DNA of 64,000 bases. It comes from an uncultured Desulfobacteraceae bacterium. GTDB taxonomy: Bacteria; Desulfobacterota; Desulfobacteria; Desulfobacterales; JALSRD01. How positions within the stretch are numbered: the first letter of the stretch is position 1; each line of letters begins with the position of its first letter. Of this stretch, positions 16,950 through 45,050 are shown piece after piece. Position numbers and translations under genes: made by a program. The notes below the pieces were generated by a model. That model made no database searches. It was not told where the DNA came from and worked only from the letters and a program-made list of their open reading frames with translations. The DNA lies in assembly GCA_964476595.1 (NCBI GenBank), contig CAYZCL010000073.1, positions 14,980 through 78,979 of the forward strand. Reading direction: 5' to 3'.

Positions 16950-17338
16950 GGGTCCTTCCGGTGGCCTGGGGCCGGTGCCGGGGTCGGCAACGGGTGCCGG
17001 TATTCGGCCCCCTCTACCACAAAGCCCGTCGCCTGCAAAGCGCAAAGTGATGGCGGCCGACGCGCCCGGTCCGGGAAACAGCCGGCAGGCACGGCTTTCA
17101 GCCGGCGACGGAGGTTCCCCGCGGCCGCCCCGTGCCGACGGCGCTGCGGCCTGTAAGGTTTGCCCCCGGCGGGCGACAGAATCTGCCGGGCCGGGGACAT
17201 CCGACGCGGTCGGCGGGGCGGCGGCGACCCGGCGCGCGACGGCCGCCCGCAACGCACCGACGGCCTTTGAAGCGCCGCCCGTCGAGACCGGGCAGGCGGT
17301 CCGCCGGCCGTCACGGCCCGTTATTCCAGGAAATCACG

Positions 17339-20300
17339 ATGCAGATACCCGAAAACATACATCGATGGAAGCGCCTCTCGTGGGAAGAGACGCCGATTTA
17401 CGTGTACCCCGAAGGGCCCGACTGGCTGGTGCCCAGCCCCAGCGGTGACCGGCTGTTGCGGCACCTGGCCGCCGGGGGGCATCCCCGGGAGCCGGCGGTG
17501 CTGTCGCAAAACGGCGACAGTGCCATGGCGCTGCTGCGCACTGAGCAGTTCCTGTCCCTGATCCCGCGAGCCAACGGCCGCCCCTACCGGGGGCGGGGCG
17601 CGGTGCTGACGCTGGAACGGCTGCGCGAGTGCTGGCTGCACATCACCGACCGCTGCAACCTGGCCTGCCGGCACTGCCTATTCGCCTGCTCCGCGGCCAC
17701 CCGCACCACCCTGCCGGCGGCGCGCATCGCGCGCGTCGTGTCCCAGGCCTATGCGCTGGGAACGCGCGTTTTCTACCTCACCGGCGGTGAACCGCTGGCG
17801 CACCCGGAGATCGATGCGGTCTGCCGGGAGATCCTGCTGGCGCACGACGACACCCTGCTGGTGATGCTCACCAACGGGCTGCTGATCCCTTCGCGGCAGA
17901 AGCTGCTGACGTCCCTGCCCGCCGACCGCCTGCACCTGCAGGTCAGCGTGGACGGCCTCGAAGCCGTCCACGATCGGCTGCGCGGCCGGGGCGGCTTCGC
18001 GCGGCTGGCGGAGATCATGGCGCGCCTGCCGGAACGGGGCCTGCGGGCGTCGCTGGCCATGGCCGTTCACGCCAGCAACGTGCACCAGATGGCCGACGTG
18101 GTGGACCTGGCCGCCCGCTGGGGGGCCGTGTCGGTGCACTACCTTTGGCTGCTGGTGACCGGCAAGGCGCGCCCGGCGGACTTCGTGGCGCCGCAGACCC
18201 TCTTTGCCCGCCTGGCCGACGCCCGGCAGCGGGCCGTGCGGCGCGGCGTCACCATCGACAACATCAGCACGCTGGAGTCACAGGTCTTCTCAGCGCCGGG
18301 CACGCGCCACGACCTGGGCAACGCCGCCTGGGAATCCCTGGCCGTGGGCCCCGACGGGCGCGTCTTTCCCACGCCGGCCCTGGTGGGGCAGGACGCGGCC
18401 TGCGCCGGTCACATCGACCGCGGGCTCGAACGCGTGTGGCGCGCAAGTCCCCTGTTCGAGGACCTGCGCCGCCGTTCGCTGGTGGACGTGCCCCGTTACG
18501 CGCGCAACCCGCTGCGCTTCCTGGTGGGCGGCGGCGACATCGACCACAGCTTCTACGCCGGCGGCGATTTCATCGGACACGACCCCTACGTGCCGCTGTA
18601 CAACCGCGTGGCCCTGTGGCGCATCGCCGCGGCCGCCCGGCGCGCACGGCGGATGCCCTGGCCCCAGGTGCGGCTGAAGATGGGCGACCGTCTGCTGCAG
18701 TGCCACAGCGCCGGCGACGGCGTGGCGCTGACCCACGCCAACTGCGTGCTGACCCTTTCGGCCACGCACCGCGTGGTGGGCGACTTCTACGCGCGGGCGG
18801 CCCGCGAACCCAGGACCGACATCCGCAACCCGGTCTGCTATCCCGAGGACGACGTGGCACACATCCCGGCCGAGGCGCGCGTGCGCTCCTACGGCTGCGG
18901 CAGCCCGGTGATGGACGCGGCCCTCGCCCCCGGCGAAACCGTGGTGGACCTGGGCAGCGGCACCGGCGTGGAGTGCTTCATCGCCGCGCGCCAAGTGGGC
19001 CCCCGGGGGCGGGTGGTGGGCGTCGACATGCTCGACGACATGCTGGCGCGTGCGCGCGCCGCCGCGTCAAGCGTCTCCCGGCAGCTGGGTTACGACAACG
19101 TCTCCTTCCGCAAGGGGTACCTGGAGGACCTGCCGCTGGAAGATGCCTTCGCCGACGTCGTGCTGTCCAACTGCGTCATCAACCTCAGCGAGGACAAGCG
19201 CCAGACCCTGGCCGAGATCCACCGTATCCTAAAGCCCGGCGGCCGCCTGGTGATCTCCGACGTGGTCACCGACCGGCCCTTTGCGCCGGCCATCGCCAAC
19301 GACCCGGTCCTGCGCGGCGAGTGCATCGCCGGCGCCATGGTGCAGGACCGCCTGCTGTCGCTGCTGGAGGCCGTGGGCTTTGCGAACATCCGCCTGATCA
19401 AACGTTTCTTTTACCGGCGCGTGCGGGGGCACACCTTCTACTCCCTGACGTACGCCGCCGTGCGTCCCGCGCCGCCCGTGCGGCGCAGCGTAATCTATCC
19501 CGGCCCCTACGCCGGCGTGGTCACCGACAGCGGCCGCCTGCTGCTGCGCGGCCGCAAGACCGAGCTGGACTGGAGCGAGCAGGTCGACGACGCCGGCGCC
19601 ATCCTGCTGCTCGACGAGGCGGGCAGCGCGGTCAACACCGCCTCGGAAAACACCTGCGCCTGCCAGGCGCCCCCCGAGGCGCGCGGCAGGGACGGCGGCG
19701 GGGCGCCGGCCGAGGCGCTCATCCCGGCCGCCGACCGCTTCCTGACACCCCCGGGGAAGTCCCGGACCGGCTGCATGCGCTGCGGCGCGCCGCTGGCCTA
19801 CCTGGAACGCGACCGGCCCGAGCGCTGCGTGTTCTGCGGCGAGGTCGGGCCGGCCAACGCGGTGTGCGAGAAGGGGCACTTCGTCTGCGACCGCTGCCAC
19901 AGCCGCGATGCCGTGCACGTGGTGCGGCATCTGTGCCTGACGTCCACCGAGACGGACATGATCGATCTACTCAACCGCATCCGGCGGCACCCGGCGGTGC
20001 CCATGCACGGGCCGGAGCACCACTTCGCCCTGCCCGGCGTGATCGTGGCCGCCTACCGCAACAGCGGCGGGGCCGTCGGCGAGGCCGAGATTCTGTCGGC
20101 CATCGCGCGCGGGAGCGGCGTGCCCGGCGGCAGCTGCGGCTTCTGGGGCGCCTGCGGCGCGGCCCTTGGGGTGGGCATCGCCTTCGCCCTGCTGCTGGAG
20201 AGCAACCCCGTCAAGGCCGACCAGCGCCAGATCGCGCAGCACGTCACCGCGCAGCTGCTGCAGGCGTCGTCAGAGATCAAGGCCGCCCGCTGCTGCCAGC

Positions 20301-20449
20301 GCGAGACCTGGATGGCGCTGCAGAAGGCGGCCGAGCTGTCGCCGCTGCTGCTGCCCGTGCCGCTCACGGCGGACGGAAGCACGCGCTGCGCCCAGCGGGG
20401 CCTGAACAGCGAGTGCGCCGGCCCGCAGTGTCCTTATTACAAGGCCTGA
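17339..20449 (+). CDS. Three-part fusion: radical SAM domain (with Cys-poor SPASM-like region), ArsM-like SAM-dependent methyltransferase, and a C-terminal Cys-rich (zinc-ribbon-like plus CGAxxG-like) domain
   Basis: Track ORF 17132..20449 trimmed to MQIPENIHRW (ATG 17339). Radical SAM motif: TDRCNLACRHC. ArsM-like motifs: SYGCGSP, VVDLGSGTG, SNCVINL, RGECIAGA. C-terminal motifs: CMRCG..CVFCG..CEKGHFVCDRCH, GSCGFWGACGAALG, CAGPQCPYY. Confidence 0.8.
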   Translation: MQIPENIHRWKRLSWEETPIYVYPEGPDWLVPSPSGDRLLRHLAAGGHPREPAVLSQNGDSAMALLRTEQFLSLIPRANGRPYRGRGAVLTLERLRECWLHITDRCNLACRHCLFACSAATRTTLPAARIARVVSQAYALGTRVFYLTGGEPLAHPEIDAVCREILLAHDDTLLVMLTNGLLIPSRQKLLTSLPADRLHLQVSVDGLEAVHDRLRGRGGFARLAEIMARLPERGLRASLAMAVHASNVHQMADVVDLAARWGAVSVHYLWLLVTGKARPADFVAPQTLFARLADARQRAVRRGVTIDNISTLESQVFSAPGTRHDLGNAAWESLAVGPDGRVFPTPALVGQDAACAGHIDRGLERVWRASPLFEDLRRRSLVDVPRYARNPLRFLVGGGDIDHSFYAGGDFIGHDPYVPLYNRVALWRIAAAARRARRMPWPQVRLKMGDRLLQCHSAGDGVALTHANCVLTLSATHRVVGDFYARAAREPRTDIRNPVCYPEDDVAHIPAEARVRSYGCGSPVMDAALAPGETVVDLGSGTGVECFIAARQVGPRGRVVGVDMLDDMLARARAAASSVSRQLGYDNVSFRKGYLEDLPLEDAFADVVLSNCVINLSEDKRQTLAEIHRILKPGGRLVISDVVTDRPFAPAIANDPVLRGECIAGAMVQDRLLSLLEAVGFANIRLIKRFFYRRVRGHTFYSLTYAAVRPAPPVRRSVIYPGPYAGVVTDSGRLLLRGRKTELDWSEQVDDAGAILLLDEAGSAVNTASENTCACQAPPEARGRDGGGAPAEALIPAADRFLTPPGKSRTGCMRCGAPLAYLERDRPERCVFCGEVGPANAVCEKGHFVCDRCHSRDAVHVVRHLCLTSTETDMIDLLNRIRRHPAVPMHGPEHHFALPGVIVAAYRNSGGAVGEAEILSAIARGSGVPGGSCGFWGACGAALGVGIAFALLLESNPVKADQRQIAQHVTAQLLQASSEIKAARCCQRETWMALQKAAELSPLLLPVPLTADGSTRCAQRGLNSECAGPQCPYYKA

Positions 20450-30471: not shown

Positions 30472-30540
30472 CAGGCCCGCTCCGGGTCCGACCGCACGTC
30501 CCCCTGCGTGCGGTCGGACCGCCGACACAGGCAGACCGAC

Positions 30541-31629
30541 ATGGAAATCCGAATTCGAAACGTCAGCAAGCACTTCCACTCCAGCGGGCAGCTGATCAAG
30601 GCGCTGGACAACATCGACCTGACCATTCCGGCCAACCGCATCTTCACCCTGCTGGGGCCCAGCGGCTGCGGCAAGACCACCCTGCTGCGCTGCATCGTGG
30701 GACTGGAGTCGCCCGACAGCGGCGAGATCGAGATCGGCGGAGAGACGGTCTGGTCGCGGGAGCGGCACATCTACGTGCCCACCGAAAGCCGCGGCCTGGG
30801 CATGGTCTTCCAGACCTACGCCATCTGGCCGCACATGGACGTCTTCAACAACGTGGCCTACCCGCTGCAGACCCGCGGGCTGCCGCGCGGCGAGATCCGC
30901 GAGCGGGTGGCCCGGACGCTGCGCTTCGTGCAGCTGGAGGGTTTCGAAGACCGGCCGGCCACCAAGCTCTCCGGCGGGCAGCAGCAGCGCGTGGCCCTGG
31001 CCCGCGCCCTGGTGGCCGAGCCCAAGGTGATCCTCTTCGACGAGCCGCTGTCCAACCTGGACGCCAAGCTGCGCGAGGAGACCCGCAAGGAGCTGCGCGC
31101 CTTCCTGACCGACCTCGAGATCACCGCCGTGTACGTCACCCACGACCGCATCGAGGCCCTGGCGCTGTCGGACATGGTAGCCGTCATGAACCACGGGCGC
31201 ATCATCGAGACCGGCACGCCGCGGCAGATCTACTTCCACTCCACCCATCGCTTCGTGGTGGATTTCATCGGGCGCACCAACCTGATCGACGCCGTGGTGA
31301 CCGCCCGCCGGGACGGCCTGACCCTGGTGGACTGCCCCTTGGGCAGCGTGGCCTGCCGCCGCCACGACGAATTCGCGACCGGTGACCGGGTGACGCTCTG
31401 CCTGCGCCCCGAGTTCATCCGCTTGAAGCGCGGCGACGCCGCGCATGCGCAGAACGTGTTCAGCGGCCGCATCGACGAACTGGTCTTCATCGGCGAGGCC
31501 TTCGAGGGCGAGATCACGGTCAACGGCCTCAAGCTGTTCATCAAGACCGAGCCGGACTCGGACATCCGGGCCGGGGACACGGCCAGCTTCACGGTGGACC
31601 CCAACAACTGCATCCTGGTTTCGAAGTAG
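30541..31629 (+). CDS. ABC transporter ATP-binding protein (FbpC/PotA-like with C-terminal TOBE-like domain)
   Basis: MEIRIRNVSKHF start. Walker A GPSGCGKTT, signature LSGGQQQR, Walker B ILFDEPLSNLD. Confidence 0.9.
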   Translation: MEIRIRNVSKHFHSSGQLIKALDNIDLTIPANRIFTLLGPSGCGKTTLLRCIVGLESPDSGEIEIGGETVWSRERHIYVPTESRGLGMVFQTYAIWPHMDVFNNVAYPLQTRGLPRGEIRERVARTLRFVQLEGFEDRPATKLSGGQQQRVALARALVAEPKVILFDEPLSNLDAKLREETRKELRAFLTDLEITAVYVTHDRIEALALSDMVAVMNHGRIIETGTPRQIYFHSTHRFVVDFIGRTNLIDAVVTARRDGLTLVDCPLGSVACRRHDEFATGDRVTLCLRPEFIRLKRGDAAHAQNVFSGRIDELVFIGEAFEGEITVNGLKLFIKTEPDSDIRAGDTASFTVDPNNCILVSK

Positions 31630-31643
31630 GCGAGGCGAAGCTC

Positions 31644-33329
31644 ATGGGCGACCGCAAATCCTTCCTGACACCGGTACTGATCGCCGTCGTCGGTTTCCTG
31701 ACCGTGTGCCCGGTGATCATGCTGGTCTTCGGCAGCTTTTCCACGGGCCTGGGGGCCTTCGGCCATTTTACGCTGGACAAGTACATCCAGGTCTACACGA
31801 ACCCCGAGCTGGCCGGCATCATCTTCAACACCATCGTCTTCGTGCTGGGCTCGTCGGCCGTGGCCACCGGCCTGGCGCTGCTGCTGGTCTACCTCAACAC
31901 GCGCACCGACATCCCCTTCAAGTTCCTCTTCCGGATCATCTCCATCATCCCCATGATGATCCCGCACATCCTGTTCTCGGTCAGCTGGGTGCTGCTGCTG
32001 AATCCCTCCAACGGGCTGATCAACCTGTTCCTGCGGCAGGTGCTGGGGCTGGAAAACGCGGCCATCAACATCTACTCCCTGCAGGGCATGATCCTGGTCG
32101 AGGGGCTGCTGGACCTGCCCATCGCCTACCTCATCCTGGCGCCGGCCATGGCGTCCTTCGACGTGGCCCTGGAGGAGTCCTCACGGGTCTGCGGTGGAAG
32201 TACTTTGCGCACCCTTTTCCGGGTCACGCTGCCGGTGCTGCGGCCGGCCATCCTGGCGGCCTTCATCCTGTCGCTGGTGCGCAGCCTGGCGTCCTTCGCC
32301 GTGCCGTCGGTCATCGGCATGCCCGGGCGCATCTACGTGCTGGCGACCCACATCTACCAGTCCATCGCCACGGGTTTCGCCGCCGACTTCGGCAAGGCCG
32401 CCGCCATCGGCATGAGCGTGCTGGTGACTTCCATCACGCTGATCTACCTCTACCGCTACCTGACATCGGAGAGCGAGAAGTACGTTACCATCTCCAGCCG
32501 GGGCTACCGTCCCACGGTGATCCATCTCAAGGGCGCCCGCTACCCCCTGTTCGGCGTGGTGGGCATCCTCTCGCTGGTGCTGATCGTGCTGCCGGTGCTG
32601 GTGCTCTTTTACACGTCGCTGGTGCCGTACTCCATGGTGCCCAGCATGAAGGCCTTTTCCATGATGAGCTGGAAGCACTGGATCGAGGTGATCCACGACC
32701 CCATCTCGATCCTGTCGCTCAAGAACAGCGTCTTCCTGGGCGTGGTGGGGGCCACCCTGGGCATCACCCTGTCGGTGTTCGTGGCCTACGCCATCGTCAA
32801 GGTGCGCTCGCACGCCTCCGGCATCCTGGAGAGCCTCTCGTTCCTGTCGTTTTCCTTTCCCGGCATCGTCATCGGCGTGGGCTTTATGTGGTTTTTCGTG
32901 CGCACGCCGCTCTACGCCACCATCTGGGCGCTGCTCATCGGCTACATCGCCACCTACCTGCCTTACGGCGTGCGCCCACTGACCAGCGCCTTCATCCAGG
33001 TCCACAGCCACCTGGAGGAGTCCTCGCAGGTCTGCGGCGCCGGAGCCTTCACCACCATGCGCCGCATCGTCATCCCGCTGCTGATCCCCGGTATCGTCTC
33101 GGGCTGGATCCTGATGGCCACCATGTTCGTGCGCGAGCTGACGCTCTCGGTGGTGCTCTCGCGGCCGGGCACCGAGGTGCTGGCGGTGCAGATCTTCCGC
33201 TTCGCCGAAGACGGCCTTTGGGGCCAGCTCTCGGCCCTGGGCATCATGATGATCTTCATCTCCACGACGCTGGTCATCCTGGCCACCCTGGTGGGCATCA
33301 AGTTCAAGCCCATGGAAGAGAGTACCTGA
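31644..33329 (+). CDS. ABC transporter permease, duplicated (FbpB-like, two BPD_transp_1 modules)
   Basis: 561-aa polytopic protein with two EAA-type regions (EESSRVCGGSTLRTLFRVTLP and EESSQVCGAGAFTTMRRIVIP). Confidence 0.9.
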   Translation: MGDRKSFLTPVLIAVVGFLTVCPVIMLVFGSFSTGLGAFGHFTLDKYIQVYTNPELAGIIFNTIVFVLGSSAVATGLALLLVYLNTRTDIPFKFLFRIISIIPMMIPHILFSVSWVLLLNPSNGLINLFLRQVLGLENAAINIYSLQGMILVEGLLDLPIAYLILAPAMASFDVALEESSRVCGGSTLRTLFRVTLPVLRPAILAAFILSLVRSLASFAVPSVIGMPGRIYVLATHIYQSIATGFAADFGKAAAIGMSVLVTSITLIYLYRYLTSESEKYVTISSRGYRPTVIHLKGARYPLFGVVGILSLVLIVLPVLVLFYTSLVPYSMVPSMKAFSMMSWKHWIEVIHDPISILSLKNSVFLGVVGATLGITLSVFVAYAIVKVRSHASGILESLSFLSFSFPGIVIGVGFMWFFVRTPLYATIWALLIGYIATYLPYGVRPLTSAFIQVHSHLEESSQVCGAGAFTTMRRIVIPLLIPGIVSGWILMATMFVRELTLSVVLSRPGTEVLAVQIFRFAEDGLWGQLSALGIMMIFISTTLVILATLVGIKFKPMEEST

Positions 33330-42058: not shown

Positions 42059-42274
42059 AGTTCTCCGAAGCCCATTATTTTACTTGCATTTTGCGCTTGT
42101 TTTGCCGAATTAGGGACTAGGTGTGGGAGCGGCGTTTTTTCGGGTTCTCGAACCGCTTTCCGCATCCGGGTATCCGTGGAAAAGCCGGGAATGGGGGCAG
42201 ATCACTTTTTCCGGGTGTTGTGAATGCAATGCATGGTCGCCGGGTGTAAGCGCATGGCCTACAAGGAGACGAAC

Positions 42275-42526
42275 ATGAAGAAGATCATCATCGGCAGCCT
42301 GCTGGGCGCCGGCGCCGGGTTCGGCATTAGCAGGCTGTTCGCCTGCGTGGGCGGCGGCTGAGCGCTGTTCATGAACCCGTTCATCGCGCTGATCCTGGGC
42401 GGCGTGATGGGCGGTGTGCTGGCCTCCGGTGGAGAGCCGCAGAAGAATACCTCCGGAAGGGATGCTTACGGGGTAAAGGATGAAACGTTGAGCCAGAACA
42501 ATCCGGGGACAGAGAGAGGCGATTGA
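42275..42526 (+). CDS. Candidate small two-TM membrane selenoprotein (83 aa if UGA 42359-61 is read as Sec); otherwise two separate mini-ORFs of 28 and 51 aa
   Basis: SD AAGGAG sits 6 nt before ATG 42275. The first part, MKKIIIGSLLGAGAGFGISRLFACVGGG, runs to the TGA. Reading through in frame gives ALFMNPFIALILGGVMGGVLASGGEPQK.... The second ATG (42371) is in the same frame and has no SD. A hairpin lies at 42362-42389, directly after the UGA. Confidence 0.4.
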
Positions 42527-44658
42527 TGATACCGACAATGACGAAACCTTTCAGGTTCAGTTTTTTTTTCTGGATGATCATGTCACTGACAGGTGCCGTT
42601 CTGCCCGGTTCCCTGCATGCAGGTGCAGTGCTGCGTTCCGATCTGTCATGGATACGAAGCTGGGGATACCAGTTGCAAGGCGCCGATGTGCGACAGCTTG
42701 CCGAAAGCCCTTATGACCTGCTGGTAATTGATTACTCCAGGGATGGAACCGATGCCGGCGCCTATACTCCGGCAGAGATACGCCGTATTCAACACACCGG
42801 AAAGCTTGTCTTGGCCTACATGTCCATCGGCGAAGCCGAGAGCTATCGATTTTACTGGAAAAATTCGTGGGAAACGGCGCCTCCTCGCTTCCTTGGTCCC
42901 GAAAACCCTGAATGGGAAGGGAATTTCAAGGTTCGCTACTGGCGCAAGACTTGGTGGAAACAGGCCTTGCGGCCTTTCTTGGATCGAATTCTGGCGGCCG
43001 GTTTCGATGGTGTCTATCTGGACATTATCGATGCCTACGATTTCTGGGGCCACCACGGTTTGAAGGTCCGCCGCAGTGCCGATCGGATGGCCCGGCTGGT
43101 CGTTAAAATTGGTAAATACAGCCGTTCGCGTGCCGGCAGCCGATTCATCATTTGTCCCCAGAACGGTGTCGGTCTCATTGACGATGCTTCCAGGAAATGG
43201 CGCAGGCGGTACTTGGAATCCATCGATTGCATCGGAGTCGAAGATCTTTGGTTCAACACTTGGAGCCCGGAGGATCAGGTTTACCGCCTAAAAATGCTGA
43301 CCGCTTTCGACCAGGCCGGGAAGAAGATTTTCAACGTAGAGTACATTGCTCCCGGAAAGTACGACGAATATGACACTAAGGTGGAGACGCATCGACCGCT
43401 TGTGGTGCCATATGCCGCAGACCCGGATCGCGAATTGGACGAGTTGCTGATTCATGGGGAACGACCCTTTTTCACCGACAAAATGGATCTATGGCGGGGT
43501 GAAACGCTGCTGCGGGGAGCCGATGTGTACCAGCGCAGGGTGTACCCGGAGCTTGATGGCCCGGATTTTCTGGGAAGCGGCCCCGTGGGTCCACCCTATA
43601 GCCAGACCGATTTCGACCGCTTGGCGGGTATGGGCGCCAACTTGGTGGTGATTTCGCATCCCGGGCTTTACAGCGAAAACGCGGACTTCAGCCTGGACGT
43701 TGCGATTCAGGACAATCTCGACAGGCTCGTGGAAATGGCCGCCCGCGCCGATTTGTTCGTTGTGATCGCTCTGCGTACGGGACCGGGGCGCAGCGAATTC
43801 ACTTTCCTGCTGGAGGACCTTGGCAGGTGGTTCGATGAGCGTTACCTAAACGATTCGCTTTGGCAAAGCCGGGAGGCCCAGAATGCTTGGGTACGCATGT
43901 GGCGGCACGTGGCGCAACGTTACCGCAATAATCCCGTCGTGGTTGGATACGATCTGATGGTCGAGCCTAACGCCAACGAAGTGGGCAGCCATGCCATCAC
44001 GGATGCATTGGATATCTGGGAACCGGATGTCTTCTACCGGCAATACCGAGGATCCCTCTATGATTGGGCTCCCCTCTACAGGCGTATCACAACCGCGATT
44101 CGGGAAGTCGACCCCCGCACTCCCATCCTGATCGGCGCCATGGGATACAGCGCCGTCGACTGGATGCCCTATCTAGAGGTCACCGATGATTCCCGAACGG
44201 TGTACACTGTCCACCAATACGCACCCGAGACATACACCCATCAGGGGAAAAGGCGCAAACGAAAATACCCCGGTCGTTTTGACACCGATGGAGATGGAAT
44301 CCGTGAACGGTTCAATCGGGCTTGGCTGGACAGCCTTTTGACAATGGTCGACGAATTCAGCCAACAGCATGGCGTACCCACGGCTATAACCGAATTCGGC
44401 GCCATGAGGTGGGAACCCGGTGCGGCTCGTTTCATCCACGACCAGATGGGCCTTTTCGAAAAACGCAACATGAATCATGCCATCTGGTTGTGGGAAACCT
44501 CCTGGCAGCCATACAATCGGCTGGAGGACGCCTTTAATTTTCGTCATGGGCCCAAGCGGGGCCGACATGCGGAGGGTGCCGGCGGTGAACTGCAGCGCGT
44601 AATCGGCAGCTACTGGCGCCGAAACTGGGTGCGTCCCTCGGGGGTAGACTTCAGATGA
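42526..44658 (+). CDS. Secreted two-domain glycoside hydrolase: GH114/TM1410-like (endo-alpha-1,4-polygalactosaminidase family) N-terminal domain plus a clan GH-A (GH5-like) C-terminal domain
   Basis: Signal peptide MTKPFRFSFFFWMIMSLTGAVLPGSLHA. GH114-like motifs: WGYQLQ...LLVIDYS...YMSIGEAESYRFYW...GFDGVYLDIIDAY. GH5-like motifs: GYDLMVEPN (acid/base Glu) and ITEFG (nucleophile Glu). The track start is TTG 42523. ATG 42526 overlaps the upstream stop (TGATG). Confidence 0.8.
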   Translation: MIPTMTKPFRFSFFFWMIMSLTGAVLPGSLHAGAVLRSDLSWIRSWGYQLQGADVRQLAESPYDLLVIDYSRDGTDAGAYTPAEIRRIQHTGKLVLAYMSIGEAESYRFYWKNSWETAPPRFLGPENPEWEGNFKVRYWRKTWWKQALRPFLDRILAAGFDGVYLDIIDAYDFWGHHGLKVRRSADRMARLVVKIGKYSRSRAGSRFIICPQNGVGLIDDASRKWRRRYLESIDCIGVEDLWFNTWSPEDQVYRLKMLTAFDQAGKKIFNVEYIAPGKYDEYDTKVETHRPLVVPYAADPDRELDELLIHGERPFFTDKMDLWRGETLLRGADVYQRRVYPELDGPDFLGSGPVGPPYSQTDFDRLAGMGANLVVISHPGLYSENADFSLDVAIQDNLDRLVEMAARADLFVVIALRTGPGRSEFTFLLEDLGRWFDERYLNDSLWQSREAQNAWVRMWRHVAQRYRNNPVVVGYDLMVEPNANEVGSHAITDALDIWEPDVFYRQYRGSLYDWAPLYRRITTAIREVDPRTPILIGAMGYSAVDWMPYLEVTDDSRTVYTVHQYAPETYTHQGKRRKRKYPGRFDTDGDGIRERFNRAWLDSLLTMVDEFSQQHGVPTAITEFGAMRWEPGAARFIHDQMGLFEKRNMNHAIWLWETSWQPYNRLEDAFNFRHGPKRGRHAEGAGGELQRVIGSYWRRNWVRPSGVDFR

Positions 44659-44795: not shown

Positions 44796-45050
44796 ATGCC
44801 CCTGTATGATTTCCAGTGCAGAGACTGCGGAAAGACCAGCGAGATCCTGATGACCGGCAGCGCCGATGCGCCTGTCTGCCGCCACTGCGGCAGCGGCAAC
44901 CTCGAAAAGCTGATGTCGGCCCCGTCGTCGCTTTCCGGAGAAGCCCGCCAAGGGCTGCCGGGACCCGGCGACACGGCCTGCTGCGGCAGCGCACCCGGTG
45001 CCGGGAACTGCGCTGGTCCGGGCAGCTGCTGCGGCCGCGGGCCGGCATGA
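44796..45050 (+). CDS. FmdB-family zinc-ribbon protein with a Cys/Gly-rich tail
   Basis: MPLYDFQCRDCGKTSEILM...APVCRHCGSGNLEKLMSAPS matches the CxxC-CxxC-SSSS family. SD AAGGAGGAG upstream. Confidence 0.8.
   Translation: MPLYDFQCRDCGKTSEILMTGSADAPVCRHCGSGNLEKLMSAPSSLSGEARQGLPGPGDTACCGSAPGAGNCAGPGSCCGRGPA

What the first reader, a model, noticed from the sequence alone, without database searches (positions are those of the whole stretch)
42275..42526. Candidate small membrane selenoprotein: in-frame UGA inside a C-x4-U motif between two Gly-zipper helices
An SD-led mini-ORF (MKKIIIGSLLGAGAGFGISRLFACVGGG) ends at TGA 42359-61. The reading frame continues unbroken (ALFMNPFIALILGGVMGGVLASGG...) for 54 more codons. 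The only downstream ATG (42371) is in the same frame and lacks any SD. Read-through gives an 83-aa two-helix protein with CVGGGU. From memory, a family of small membrane proteins (I believe annotated DUF6132) has the pattern MKK..IG...G....Y..VGC.SG.C.I.SNP.IS..YG...G. That is C-x4-C followed five residues later by NP, which aligns with C-x4-U...MNP here. So a Cys homologue would sit at the UGA position. An imperfect hairpin (GCGC...AUGAA-CCCG-UUCAU-C-GCGC, 42362-42389) lies directly 3' of the UGA, where a bacterial SECIS would be. Deltaproteobacteria-type anaerobes are known to be selenoprotein-rich. The gene's stop overlaps the start of the glycoside hydrolase gene (TGATG).
Basis: partly seen in the sequence, partly recalled or inferred. 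Interest (0 to 1): 0.7.

Follow-up and report, generated by a model that had tools for sequence, protein, structure and literature searches.

The report
Candidate tiny membrane selenoprotein (DUF6132-like)
A very small two-helix membrane protein gene in a sulfate-reducer-type bacterium carries a conserved in-frame UGA exactly where all its relatives have an essential cysteine, so it is most likely a previously unlisted selenocysteine protein and it hints that this uncharacterised protein family does thiol/sulfur redox chemistry at the membrane.

Summary
An SD-led ORF (ATG 42275) meets TGA at 42359-61, and the frame stays open to TGA 42524-26.

- **Conservation.** Eight related sequences (seven distinct) from Desulfobacterales-type metagenome contigs all keep this TGA. 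Both halves evolve as one coding frame: 34 of 49 variable sites are third positions, and pN/pS is about 0.02-0.2.
- **Homology.** A profile of the read-through product, with X at the TGA, aligns without gaps to 39 DUF6132 (PF19628) proteins (hhalign 98.2%, E 5e-14).
- **Hairpin.** A 15-bp hairpin at 42377-42414 (-24.8 kcal/mol, z -4.2) starts 15 nt after the UGA. It meets the published bacterial SECIS limits except a G at the start of the loop.
  - Its top varies between orthologues.
  - Weaker hairpins sit at the same place in the Cys homologues.
- **Sec machinery.** No Sec machinery genes lie in the window or in 10 kb beyond it. Use of Sec is inferred from taxonomy only.
- **Family context.** DUF6132 genes sit beside rhodanese, thioredoxin and DsbD/CcdA genes.

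The family is absent from a 2026 list of 119 selenoprotein families. Verdict: a probable new selenoprotein family (about 0.75). The main rival is a split gene with reinitiation at AUG 42371.

The parts
42263..42269 (+). Shine-Dalgarno sequence (AAGGAGA) of the small gene
   Evidence: Read directly. It lies 5 nt before the ATG. GGAGGGAGA or AGGAGA is kept at the same distance in all orthologues.
42275..42358 (+). Codons 1-28: MKK + Gly-zipper helix 1 + first Cys of the motif (C24, TGC 42344-46)
   Evidence: Translation. pN/pS is 0.03-0.2 across orthologues. The segment aligns to DUF6132 helix 1 and the first invariant Cys.
42359..42361 (+). In-frame TGA, proposed selenocysteine codon (U29) in C-V-G-G-G-U
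   Evidence: Invariant in 8 of 8 related sequences. It aligns with the second invariant Cys of the DUF6132 C-x4-C motif when entered as X.
42362..42370 (+). Codons 30-32 (A-L-F) between the TGA and the in-frame ATG
   Evidence: 3 of 4 variable sites are third positions, and the only amino-acid change is A->V. The codons align to the P/A-I/L-T columns of DUF6132.
42371..42373 (+). Conserved in-frame ATG (M33); possible reinitiation start in the rival model
   Evidence: Invariant in 8 of 8 sequences. DUF6132 has S, K or G in this column and never M. Gene callers start the 51-aa ORF P0001 here.
42377..42414 (+). 15-bp hairpin, loop AUCCUGGG (42392-99): candidate SECIS
   Evidence: -24.8 kcal/mol, z -4.18, 0 of 200 shuffles as stable. 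It is one of only about 3 distinct hairpins of 15 bp or more on both strands of the 64-kb window. RNAalifold keeps it. 90.5% of cells are paired, and there is one compensatory column, 30-45.
42374..42433 (+). Codons 34-53: NP + Gly-zipper helix 2 (NPFIALILGGVMGGVLASGG)
   Evidence: pN/pS is 0.02-0.07. The segment aligns to DUF6132 helix 2. In the AF2 model of DUF6132 member P0007, helix 2 spans residues 42-57.
42434..42526 (+). Variable hydrophilic C-terminal tail and true stop TGA 42524-26, overlapping the ATG 42526 of the GH114/cellulase gene
   Evidence: The tail is in frame but variable among orthologues. The stop/start overlap is kept in L001, L004 and L006.
44796..45050 (+). FmdB-family zinc-ribbon gene with a Cys-rich tail. 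It is the only neighbour kept in every context and is a possible partner (association only).
   Evidence: tblastn synteny in L001, L008, L012 and L013. Pfam Zn_ribbon_8.

Best explanation
The ORF 42275-42526 is a single gene for an 83-residue selenoprotein.

**Proposed structure (inferred).**
- The protein forms a helical hairpin in the membrane.
- The N-terminus (MKK) and the C-terminal tail face the cytoplasm.
- The short connecting loop A-C-V-G-G-G-U-A-L-F-M-N-P sits at the outer face.

**Proposed decoding (inferred).**
- UGA 42359-61 is read as selenocysteine by SelB and tRNA-Sec.
- A coding-region hairpin that starts 15 nt downstream (42377-42414) helps this.

**Proposed chemistry (inferred).**
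- Cys24 and Sec29 form a redox-active C-x4-U pair (thiol/selenol to selenenylsulfide).
- This pair does the job of the invariant C-x4-C pair of DUF6132 proteins.
- From gene neighbourhoods, that job is thiol-disulfide exchange or sulfane-sulfur handling at the membrane, together with exported rhodanese and thioredoxin proteins and DsbD/CcdA-type electron conduits.

**Shown here.**
- The TGA is conserved.
- Both halves are under coding selection.
- Sec aligns with Cys in DUF6132.
- The hairpin is present.
- DUF6132 genes have the stated neighbourhoods.

**Inferred only.**
- Actual Sec insertion.
- The membrane topology.
- The chemistry.
For: 1. **TGA conservation.** The TGA is invariant in 8 related sequences. 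34 of 49 variable columns are codon position 3. pN/pS is 0.02-0.2 both upstream and downstream of the TGA, so the downstream half is translated in this frame.
2. **Sec/Cys alignment.**
   - hhalign of the clade profile (X at the TGA) against 39 DUF6132 proteins gives probability 98.2%, E 5e-14, over 52 ungapped columns. X falls on the second invariant Cys.
   - BLASTP against P0009 gives 39% identity, E 1e-12.
   - A home-built DUF6132 HMM scores the protein at 32.8 bits. The best of 2000 composition-matched shuffles scores 9.6 bits.
   - 8 of 10 invariant DUF6132 columns are kept when U is counted as C.
3. **Hairpin 42377-42414.**
   - Energy is -24.8 kcal/mol, z -4.2.
   - Hairpins this long are rare in the window, about 3 in 128 kb of strand.
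   - It has an 8-nt loop, a 15-bp stem and 30 nt between the UGA and the loop. These fall within the published bSECIS limits quoted in PMC13188914.
4. **UGA is a normal stop here.** 27 of 39 window genes end in TGA, so this is not a reassigned genetic code.
5. **Host lineage.** Orthologous contigs are labelled Desulfobacteraceae. The best named PheA hits are Desulfobacterales. This lineage holds the largest known bacterial selenoproteomes (BSepDB; review).
6. **DUF6132 neighbourhoods.** DUF6132 genes sit next to a lipoprotein-type rhodanese-thioredoxin fusion, MBL-rhodanese, rhodaneses, thioredoxins, DsbD_TM and ArsR/ArsP. This is the kind of redox-active Cys that is typically replaced by Sec.
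7. **Linker codons.** Codons 30-32 change mostly synonymously, 3 of 4 changes.
Against: - No selA, selB, selC or selD gene and no tRNA was found in the 64-kb window or in 10 kb beyond it. The genome could not be searched.
- The hairpin loop AUCCUGGG has no G in its first two positions. This fails one bSECIS constraint.
- The upper stem is broken or re-registered in L012, L025 and L026.
- Covariation support is thin: one compensatory column in 7 distinct sequences.
- Cys-type DUF6132 genes also fold into a hairpin at the homologous place. The hairpin is therefore not specific to the TGA-bearing clade.
- An in-frame AUG is invariant 9 nt after the UGA. Its column is never Met in DUF6132, which fits a reinitiation model.
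- Pfam's PF19628 model and NCBIfam report no hit.
- The clade has none of the rhodanese, thioredoxin or DsbD neighbours.
- No close Cys-form of this clade exists among 1.84 billion representatives.
Confidence: 0.75

Rival explanations
1. Split gene. An ancestral DUF6132-like gene acquired TGY->TGA at the second Cys. It is now expressed as two single-helix peptides of 28 aa and 51 aa. The second is made by termination-reinitiation at AUG 42371, 9 nt after the stop. The two peptides reassemble in the membrane without the second Cys.
For: - The in-frame AUG is invariant in 8 of 8 sequences, at a column that is never Met in DUF6132.
- The short 9-nt distance would allow SD-independent reinitiation (established knowledge of translational coupling).
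- The hairpin is not canonical, and a hairpin is also present in the Cys homologues.
- Sec machinery was not shown.
- Gene callers annotate exactly these two ORFs.
Against: - This model needs the loss of a Cys that is invariant in 39 of 39 diverse family members, while the first Cys, the Gly residues of the motif and both helices stay under strong purifying selection.
- The stop falls exactly on that Cys column.
- The codons between the stop and the AUG still evolve like codons and still resemble the family consensus.
- The stop is always TGA, never TAA or TAG (weak evidence).
- The host lineage is rich in selenoproteins.
Confidence: 0.15
2. The UGA is decoded by something other than Sec. Examples are near-cognate Trp or Cys read-through, or a reassigned UGA.
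For: The frame is clearly translated beyond the UGA, and Sec machinery has not been shown.
Against: - 27 of 39 genes in the window stop at TGA, including this gene's own end. UGA is therefore not reassigned.
- Leaky read-through would insert Trp at an invariant Cys position and give little product. This fits poorly with the strong selection seen.
Confidence: 0.04
3. Pseudogene, sequencing or assembly error, or non-coding conservation (RNA element only).
For: The ORFs are short and unannotated. The region also contains a stable hairpin.
Against: - The same TGA appears in independent assemblies from NCBI, JGI, ENA and Logan.
- The third-position substitution pattern and low pN/pS on both sides show protein-level selection.
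- The protein-level homology to DUF6132 spans the TGA.
Confidence: 0.02

Closest known systems
DUF6132 (Pfam PF19628), an uncharacterised 50-80 aa protein family of Bacteroidota, Chitinispirillaceae and others
   Same: - Same size and same two Gly-zipper helices.
- The alignment is ungapped over 52 columns.
- The motif G/A-C-x2-G-x-[C/U]-x4-N-P lies in the inter-helix loop.
- 8 of 10 invariant columns are kept.
- hhalign 98.2%. A home-built HMM scores 32.8 bits.
   Different: - Sec (UGA) replaces the second Cys.
- The YY and I-T-S signature residues are replaced by I-S and L-F-M.
- Invariant G30 becomes A and invariant Y48 becomes L.
- A 30-aa hydrophilic tail is added.
- Pfam's model gives no reported hit.
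- Neighbours are sbcCD, GH114 and an FmdB zinc ribbon rather than rhodanese, thioredoxin or DsbD.
Predicted bacterial membrane selenoproteins: MerT-like mercuric transport protein (C/SxxU), YeeE/YedE family (GUxSG), SaoP permease (Table 1 of PMC13188914)
   Same: Sec replaces a functional Cys at or near a membrane surface in proteins that handle sulfur or metal(loid)s. They were identified by Sec/Cys pairing in homologues and are found in anaerobes.
   Different: - Those are multi-pass transporters with different folds and motifs.
- This protein is an 83-aa helical hairpin with C-x4-U.
- It is not in the list of 119 families.
Canonical bacterial SECIS (bSECISearch consensus)
   Same: It is a stem-loop inside the coding region just 3' of the UGA. 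The loop is 8 nt (limit 3-9), the stem 15 bp (limit 4-16), the UGA-to-loop distance 30 nt (limit 16-37), and the energy is well below -7.5 kcal/mol.
   Different: - There is no G in the first two loop positions in the window, L001 or L008.
- The apex is remodelled in L012, L025 and L026. L025 has a UGG triloop that would fit the G rule.
- A weaker homologous hairpin exists in the Cys genes.
Eukaryotic small membrane selenoproteins SELENOK/SELENOS (from general knowledge)
   Same: These are very small membrane-anchored proteins that have a single Sec.
   Different: They are single-pass, with Sec near the C-terminus in a cytosolic disordered tail and a 3'-UTR SECIS. There is no homology.

Membership tests
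Bacterial selenoprotein (Sec-UGA gene) | The in-frame UGA is conserved among orthologues, with protein-coding conservation on both sides. | tested here: met
   8 of 8 sequences keep the TGA. 34 of 49 variable sites are codon position 3. pN/pS is 0.02-0.2 in both halves.
Bacterial selenoprotein (Sec-UGA gene) | Homologues exist with Cys aligned to the UGA. | tested here: met
   In hhalign of A2 against A4, X aligns with the second invariant Cys of DUF6132 (98.2%, E 5e-14). HMM alignment.
Bacterial selenoprotein (Sec-UGA gene) | A SECIS stem-loop lies 3' of the UGA and fits the bSECIS consensus (loop 3-9 nt, stem 4-16 bp, G in the first two loop positions, 16-37 nt spacing, MFE <= -7.5 kcal/mol). 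| tested here: inconclusive
   Hairpin 42377-42414 meets the loop, stem, spacing and energy limits but not the loop-G rule. Its apex is not conserved. There is one compensatory pair. Cys homologues also have a hairpin there. bSECISearch itself was not available.
Bacterial selenoprotein (Sec-UGA gene) | The genome encodes selA, selB, selC (tRNA-Sec) and selD. | not testable with these tools
   None were found in the 64-kb window or in 10 kb beyond it. Whole MAGs could not be queried. The Desulfobacterales affiliation makes Sec use likely.
Bacterial selenoprotein (Sec-UGA gene) | Selenium is incorporated into the polypeptide. | not testable with these tools
   This needs 75Se labelling or mass spectrometry.
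DUF6132 (PF19628) | The score against the Pfam model reaches the gathering threshold (23.2 bits). | tested here: not met
   hmmscan reports no PF19628 hit even at E<=10, for the full or the 53-aa core sequence with U->C. A synthetic family consensus hits at 46.6 bits in the same call (39).
DUF6132 (PF19628) | Homology to family members is detectable by profile methods. | tested here: met
   hhalign 98.2%, E 5e-14. A home-built HMM with --max scores 32.8 bits (X) and 38.8 bits (C). The best of 2000 shuffles scores 9.6 bits. BLASTP E 1e-12.
DUF6132 (PF19628) | Invariant residues: G18 G22 G30 C31 G34 C36 P42 Y48 G49 G53 (P0007 numbering). | tested here: inconclusive
   8 of 10 are kept if U counts as C. 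G30 becomes A and Y48 becomes L. The near-invariant Y25, Y26, T39, S40 and S45 are all replaced. I read this as a divergent sister clade.
DUF6132 (PF19628) | The gene neighbourhood contains rhodanese, thioredoxin or DsbD-type genes (seen in 4 of 4 contexts sampled here; not a formal criterion). | tested here: not met
   The window and its orthologues have sbcCD or an ABC permease upstream, and GH114 and/or an FmdB zinc ribbon downstream.

The most novel reading that the evidence does not exclude
The gene is a selenium-sensing two-output locus. With selenium, SelB reads UGA-29 and a covalent two-helix C-x4-U hairpin is made. Without selenium, ribosomes terminate and reinitiate at the invariant AUG 9 nt downstream, giving two separate single-helix peptides with a different activity or none. 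This also changes coupling to the overlapping downstream gene. The coding-region hairpin, which exists in weaker form throughout the Cys-type DUF6132 family, would be a pre-existing structure that was co-opted as a SECIS.
Probability: 0.1. Interest if true: 0.75.

Novelty: new member of a known kind. Interest (0 to 1): 0.55.

Why it matters
If Sec is confirmed, four things follow.

- **A new family.** It adds a selenoprotein family that is absent from the 2026 inventory of 119 prokaryotic families and from NCBIfam. It would be one of the smallest selenoproteins, and one of the few that are essentially all membrane.
- **A functional clue for DUF6132.** Sec replaces Cys almost only at catalytically or redox-active positions. 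The Sec/Cys pair therefore marks the second Cys of the DUF6132 C-x4-C loop as the functional residue. Together with the rhodanese, thioredoxin and DsbD neighbourhoods, this turns a DUF found in hundreds of Bacteroidota and other genomes into a testable hypothesis of a membrane thiol/persulfide relay.
- **An annotation blind spot.** Gene callers split the gene into 45-aa and 51-aa orphan ORFs, and the Pfam model misses it.
- **A clue to SECIS evolution.** A hairpin at the same place in the Cys homologues suggests how a SECIS could evolve from a pre-existing coding-region structure.

Tried and rejected
**Searches that found nothing**
- Pfam and NCBIfam hmmscan of the read-through product gave no family.
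- Rfam found nothing at gathering thresholds on the whole window, and nothing meaningful in an E-value scan of 42250-42550.
- ARAGORN found no tRNA or tRNA-Sec in the window.
- Pfam annotation of about 40 window ORFs, done to look for Sec machinery or other selenoproteins, found none.
- A scan for other in-frame TGA joins in the window and in L001, L012 and L013 gave no other candidate.
- Extending the contig 10 kb past the window end showed only efflux, MarR and Sel1-repeat genes.
- The sigma-70 promoter and terminator scan around the gene found nothing on the + strand.

**Searches that showed the clade is tiny**
- The metagenome DNA-pattern scan allowing TGA/TGC/TGT at the Sec codon found only one already-known contig.
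- The genome-contig scan found only two Desulfobacteraceae MAGs.
- A full HMMER search of the C-half profile against 1.84 billion representatives found only 3 clusters and no close Cys form.

No structure of the Sec protein itself was made; only DUF6132 member P0007 was modelled (pLDDT 67).

- Its energy is -5.3 kcal/mol, z -0.5.
- The loop CCCG has no G at its start.
- The distance from the UGA to the loop is 14 nt, below the 16-nt minimum.
- The outer stem is not conserved.

**Literature**
- Searches for DUF6132, PF19628 and 'selenoprotein + glycine zipper' found nothing relevant.
- The deep-Sep supplements hold no matching sequence.
- The BSepDB supplements are not held.
- The two Haft papers are not held.

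**Cluster look-up**
- It gave no organism names.

Full report
**1. The observation**

The sequence is as described.
- AAGGAGA lies at 42263-69, and the ATG at 42275.
- The first 28 codons read MKKIIIGSLLGAGAGFGISRLFACVGGG.
- TGA is at 42359-61.
- The same frame runs for 54 more codons (ALFMNPFIALILGGVMGGVLASGGEPQKNTSGRDAYGVKDETLSQNNPGTERGD) to TGA 42524-26.
- That stop overlaps the ATG (42526) of a 710-aa Glyco_hydro_114 + Cellulase gene.
- The only ATG after the TGA and before helix 2 is 42371, in frame. No GGAG or GAGG lies at SD distance from it.
- Gene callers in public assemblies split the locus into a 45-aa ORF (P0005, from an upstream ATG) and a 51-aa ORF (P0001).

**2. Relatives keep the TGA, and both halves are one coding frame**

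- Protein and DNA searches recovered related loci from NCBI, JGI, ENA and Logan assemblies: L001-L014, L025 and L026.
- These give 8 related sequences, 7 of them distinct at the DNA level.
- All read MKK...FACVGGG-TGA-(A/V)LFMNPF...GGEP.
- Over the first 55 codons, 34 of 49 variable columns are third positions.
- Synonymous divergence reaches pS 0.68. pN/pS is 0.03-0.2 in codons 1-28 and 0.02-0.17 in codons 30-55.
- The segment after the TGA is therefore translated in this frame. This excludes a pseudogene or an assembly error.
- In the three codons between the TGA and the ATG, 3 of 4 variable sites are third positions, and the only amino-acid change is A->V.
- UGA is the ordinary stop in this genome: 27 of 39 window genes end with it.

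**3. The remembered family is real, and Cys aligns with the UGA**

- Pfam and NCBIfam hmmscan of the read-through protein (U->C) report no family.
It also retrieved 695 DUF6132 proteins.
- In an alignment of 39 of these, ten columns are invariant: G18, G22, G30, C31, G34, C36, P42, Y48, G49 and G53.
- I ran a profile-profile comparison of the window clade, written with X at the TGA so the result is unbiased, against this alignment.
  - It gives probability 98.2%, E 5e-14.
  - The alignment is ungapped over 52 columns.
  - X falls on the second invariant Cys and N-P on N-P.
- BLASTP against one member gives 39% identity, E 1e-12.
- An HMM built from the 39 members scores the window protein at 32.8 bits (X) or 38.8 bits (C). 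None of 2000 composition-matched shuffles exceeds 9.6 bits, so this is not Gly-zipper low complexity.
- Eight of the ten invariant columns are kept. The family's YY and I-T-S signatures are replaced.
- The clade is best described as a divergent, Sec-type sister of DUF6132.
- The clade is tiny. There are 3 clusters among 1.84 billion representatives and no close Cys form. Only two species genomes hold it, both labelled Desulfobacteraceae.

**4. The hairpin**

- It folds at only -5.3 kcal/mol, z -0.5.
- Its outer stem is not conserved.
- Its CCCG loop lies 14 nt from the UGA.

The minimum-energy structure instead contains an uninterrupted 15-bp helix, 42377-91 paired with 42400-14, with loop AUCCUGGG.
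- Alone it folds at -24.8 kcal/mol, z -4.18, and 0 of 200 shuffles fold as well.
- Only about three distinct hairpins of 15 bp or more exist on both strands of the 64-kb window.
- I compared it with the bSECIS constraints quoted in PMC13188914.
  - Met: loop 8 nt (limit 3-9), stem 15 bp (limit 4-16), UGA-to-loop distance 30 nt (limit 16-37), and MFE.
  - Not met: a G in the first two loop positions.

Comparative support for the hairpin is modest.
- 90.5% of cells are paired.
- The lower 8 bp are always paired.
- Several C->U and A->G changes keep wobble pairs.
- One column pair is compensatory, G-C to C-G.
- The upper stem is broken or re-registered in L012, L025 and L026. L025 forms a UGG triloop that would satisfy the G rule.
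- Four unrelated Cys-type DUF6132 genes also fold into a hairpin at the homologous place, with arms made of the codons of NP.IS and GA.MGG, and z between -1.4 and -2.8.

The hairpin is therefore a family trait that is much stronger in the TGA clade. It is not a feature unique to that clade. I treat the SECIS criterion as inconclusive.

**5. Sec machinery**

- No tRNA, Rfam family, selA, selB or selD lies in the window. None lies in 10 kb beyond its right end.
- No other in-frame-TGA candidate lies in the window or in the fetched flanks.
- The whole MAGs could not be queried.
- The lineage is Desulfobacterales, by record titles and by PheA best named hits at 81% identity.
- Desulfobacterota hold the largest bacterial selenoproteomes. 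BSepDB lists Desulfobacterales MAGs with 57 selenoprotein genes and Desulfosarcina widdelii with 39 (review).
- Sec competence is thus likely but inferred.

**6. What the protein probably does**

- AlphaFold2 on a DUF6132 member predicts helix 2-28, a loop 29-41 carrying C-x4-C, and helix 42-57. Confidence is modest, pLDDT 67.
- The lysines at the N-terminus and the Lys-rich tails (for example in L008 and in DUF6132 members) suggest an N-in/C-in topology, with the Cys loop at the outer face. This is an inference from the positive-inside rule.
- DUF6132 neighbourhoods in four independent contexts were as follows.
  - A gene 7 nt downstream encodes a rhodanese-thioredoxin fusion. It has a lipoprotein signal (…LIIASISAC), so it is exported.
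  - A DsbD_TM/CcdA gene lies immediately upstream, within a MarR / methyltransferase / radical-SAM / Trx-TrxR cluster.
  - Thioredoxin, rhodanese, ArsR, ArsP, Thioredoxin_3 and DsbD_2 genes.
  - An MBL-rhodanese gene whose end overlaps the DUF6132 start, followed by two rhodaneses and a thioredoxin.
- This supports a thiol-disulfide or sulfane-sulfur relay role for the C-x4-C loop, which is the type of Cys that Sec replaces.
- The window clade lacks these partners.
- Its only constant neighbour is an FmdB-family zinc ribbon with a Cys-rich tail.
- The GH114 gene is a lineage-specific insertion. Its GC3 is 0.64 against about 0.87 for neighbours. It is absent in L008 and is a remnant in L012.

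**7. Rivals**

- The serious rival is a split gene whose second half is made by reinitiation at the invariant AUG 9 nt after the stop. That column is never Met in DUF6132.
- Four points weigh against it.
  - The stop sits exactly on a Cys that is invariant in 39 of 39 relatives.
  - The rest of the motif stays under strong selection.
  - The linker still behaves as codons.
  - The lineage is Sec-rich.
- My estimates are: Sec about 0.75, split gene about 0.15, other read-through about 0.04, and artefact or pseudogene about 0.02.

**8. Novelty**

- Neither PF19628 nor any C-x4-U small membrane protein appears in the 119-family inventory of prokaryotic selenoproteins (PMC13188914).
- None appears in the deep-Sep supplements or in NCBIfam release 20.0.
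- No held paper mentions DUF6132 or PF19628 in this sense.
- It is therefore a candidate new selenoprotein family. That makes it a new member of a known kind, not a new mechanism.

Noticed in passing
L018 5103-5168; L022 5133-5198; L027 4085-4150; L028 4106-4171: Cys-type DUF6132 genes from four unrelated, AT-rich contigs all fold into a hairpin at the position homologous to the window hairpin. The arms are the codons of NP.IS and GA.MGG, and the loop lies about 33-38 nt after the second Cys codon. z is -1.4 to -2.8. This could be a family-wide coding-region RNA structure or a by-product of Pro/Gly codon complementarity. It could be a proto-SECIS.
   Followed up: partly
window 44796-45050 (+): An FmdB-family zinc-ribbon gene (Zn_ribbon_8) has a C-terminal Cys-rich tail (CCGSAPGAGNCAGPGSCCG). 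It is the only neighbour of the small gene kept in all contexts (L001, L008, L012, L013). The FmdB family is itself listed as having Sec forms (UxxU) in PMC13188914.
   Followed up: partly
window 42526-44658 (+): The GH114 + cellulase fusion gene has a start that overlaps the small gene's stop. Its GC3 is 0.64, against about 0.87 for neighbouring genes. It is absent in L008 and reduced to a 59-aa remnant in L012. It looks like a recent insertion, so the coupling to the small gene is lineage-specific.
   Followed up: partly
window 42116-42260: About 145 nt are present only in the window. They lie between an upstream motif conserved in the orthologues (TTTTGCCGAA, 42100-09) and the SD. The ancestral SD-like GGTGTGGGAGC remains at 42120-30, and a new SD follows the insert.
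   Followed up: no
window 30485-30520 (both strands) and 19639-19681 (-): These are the two other very long perfect hairpins in the window. One is a 15-bp palindrome just after the solute-binding protein gene, at the start of the ABC ATPase ORF. The other is an 18-bp hairpin (5 G-U pairs) inside the radical-SAM/methyltransferase gene, on the opposite strand.
   Followed up: no
window 17051-20449 (+): A 1132-aa ORF fuses a radical SAM domain, a SAM methyltransferase and DUF5714. Methyltransferase and radical-SAM genes also flank DUF6132 in L022, and such domains occur in recently described selenoprotein neighbourhoods. No in-frame TGA is present here.
   Followed up: no
L028 4792-5034 (+): A second kind of 80-aa two-helix protein ends its second helix with GCMGGHC, another C-x4-C. 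It is encoded between the rhodanese and thioredoxin genes, next to DUF6132.
   Followed up: no
window 31386-33329 (+) and L008 1-189: The ABC permease ending ...IKFKPMEEST is the immediate upstream neighbour of the small gene in L008. In the window, PadR, CobW, an MIP channel and sbcCD lie between them, so the slot around the small gene is a hotspot for gene insertion.
   Followed up: partly
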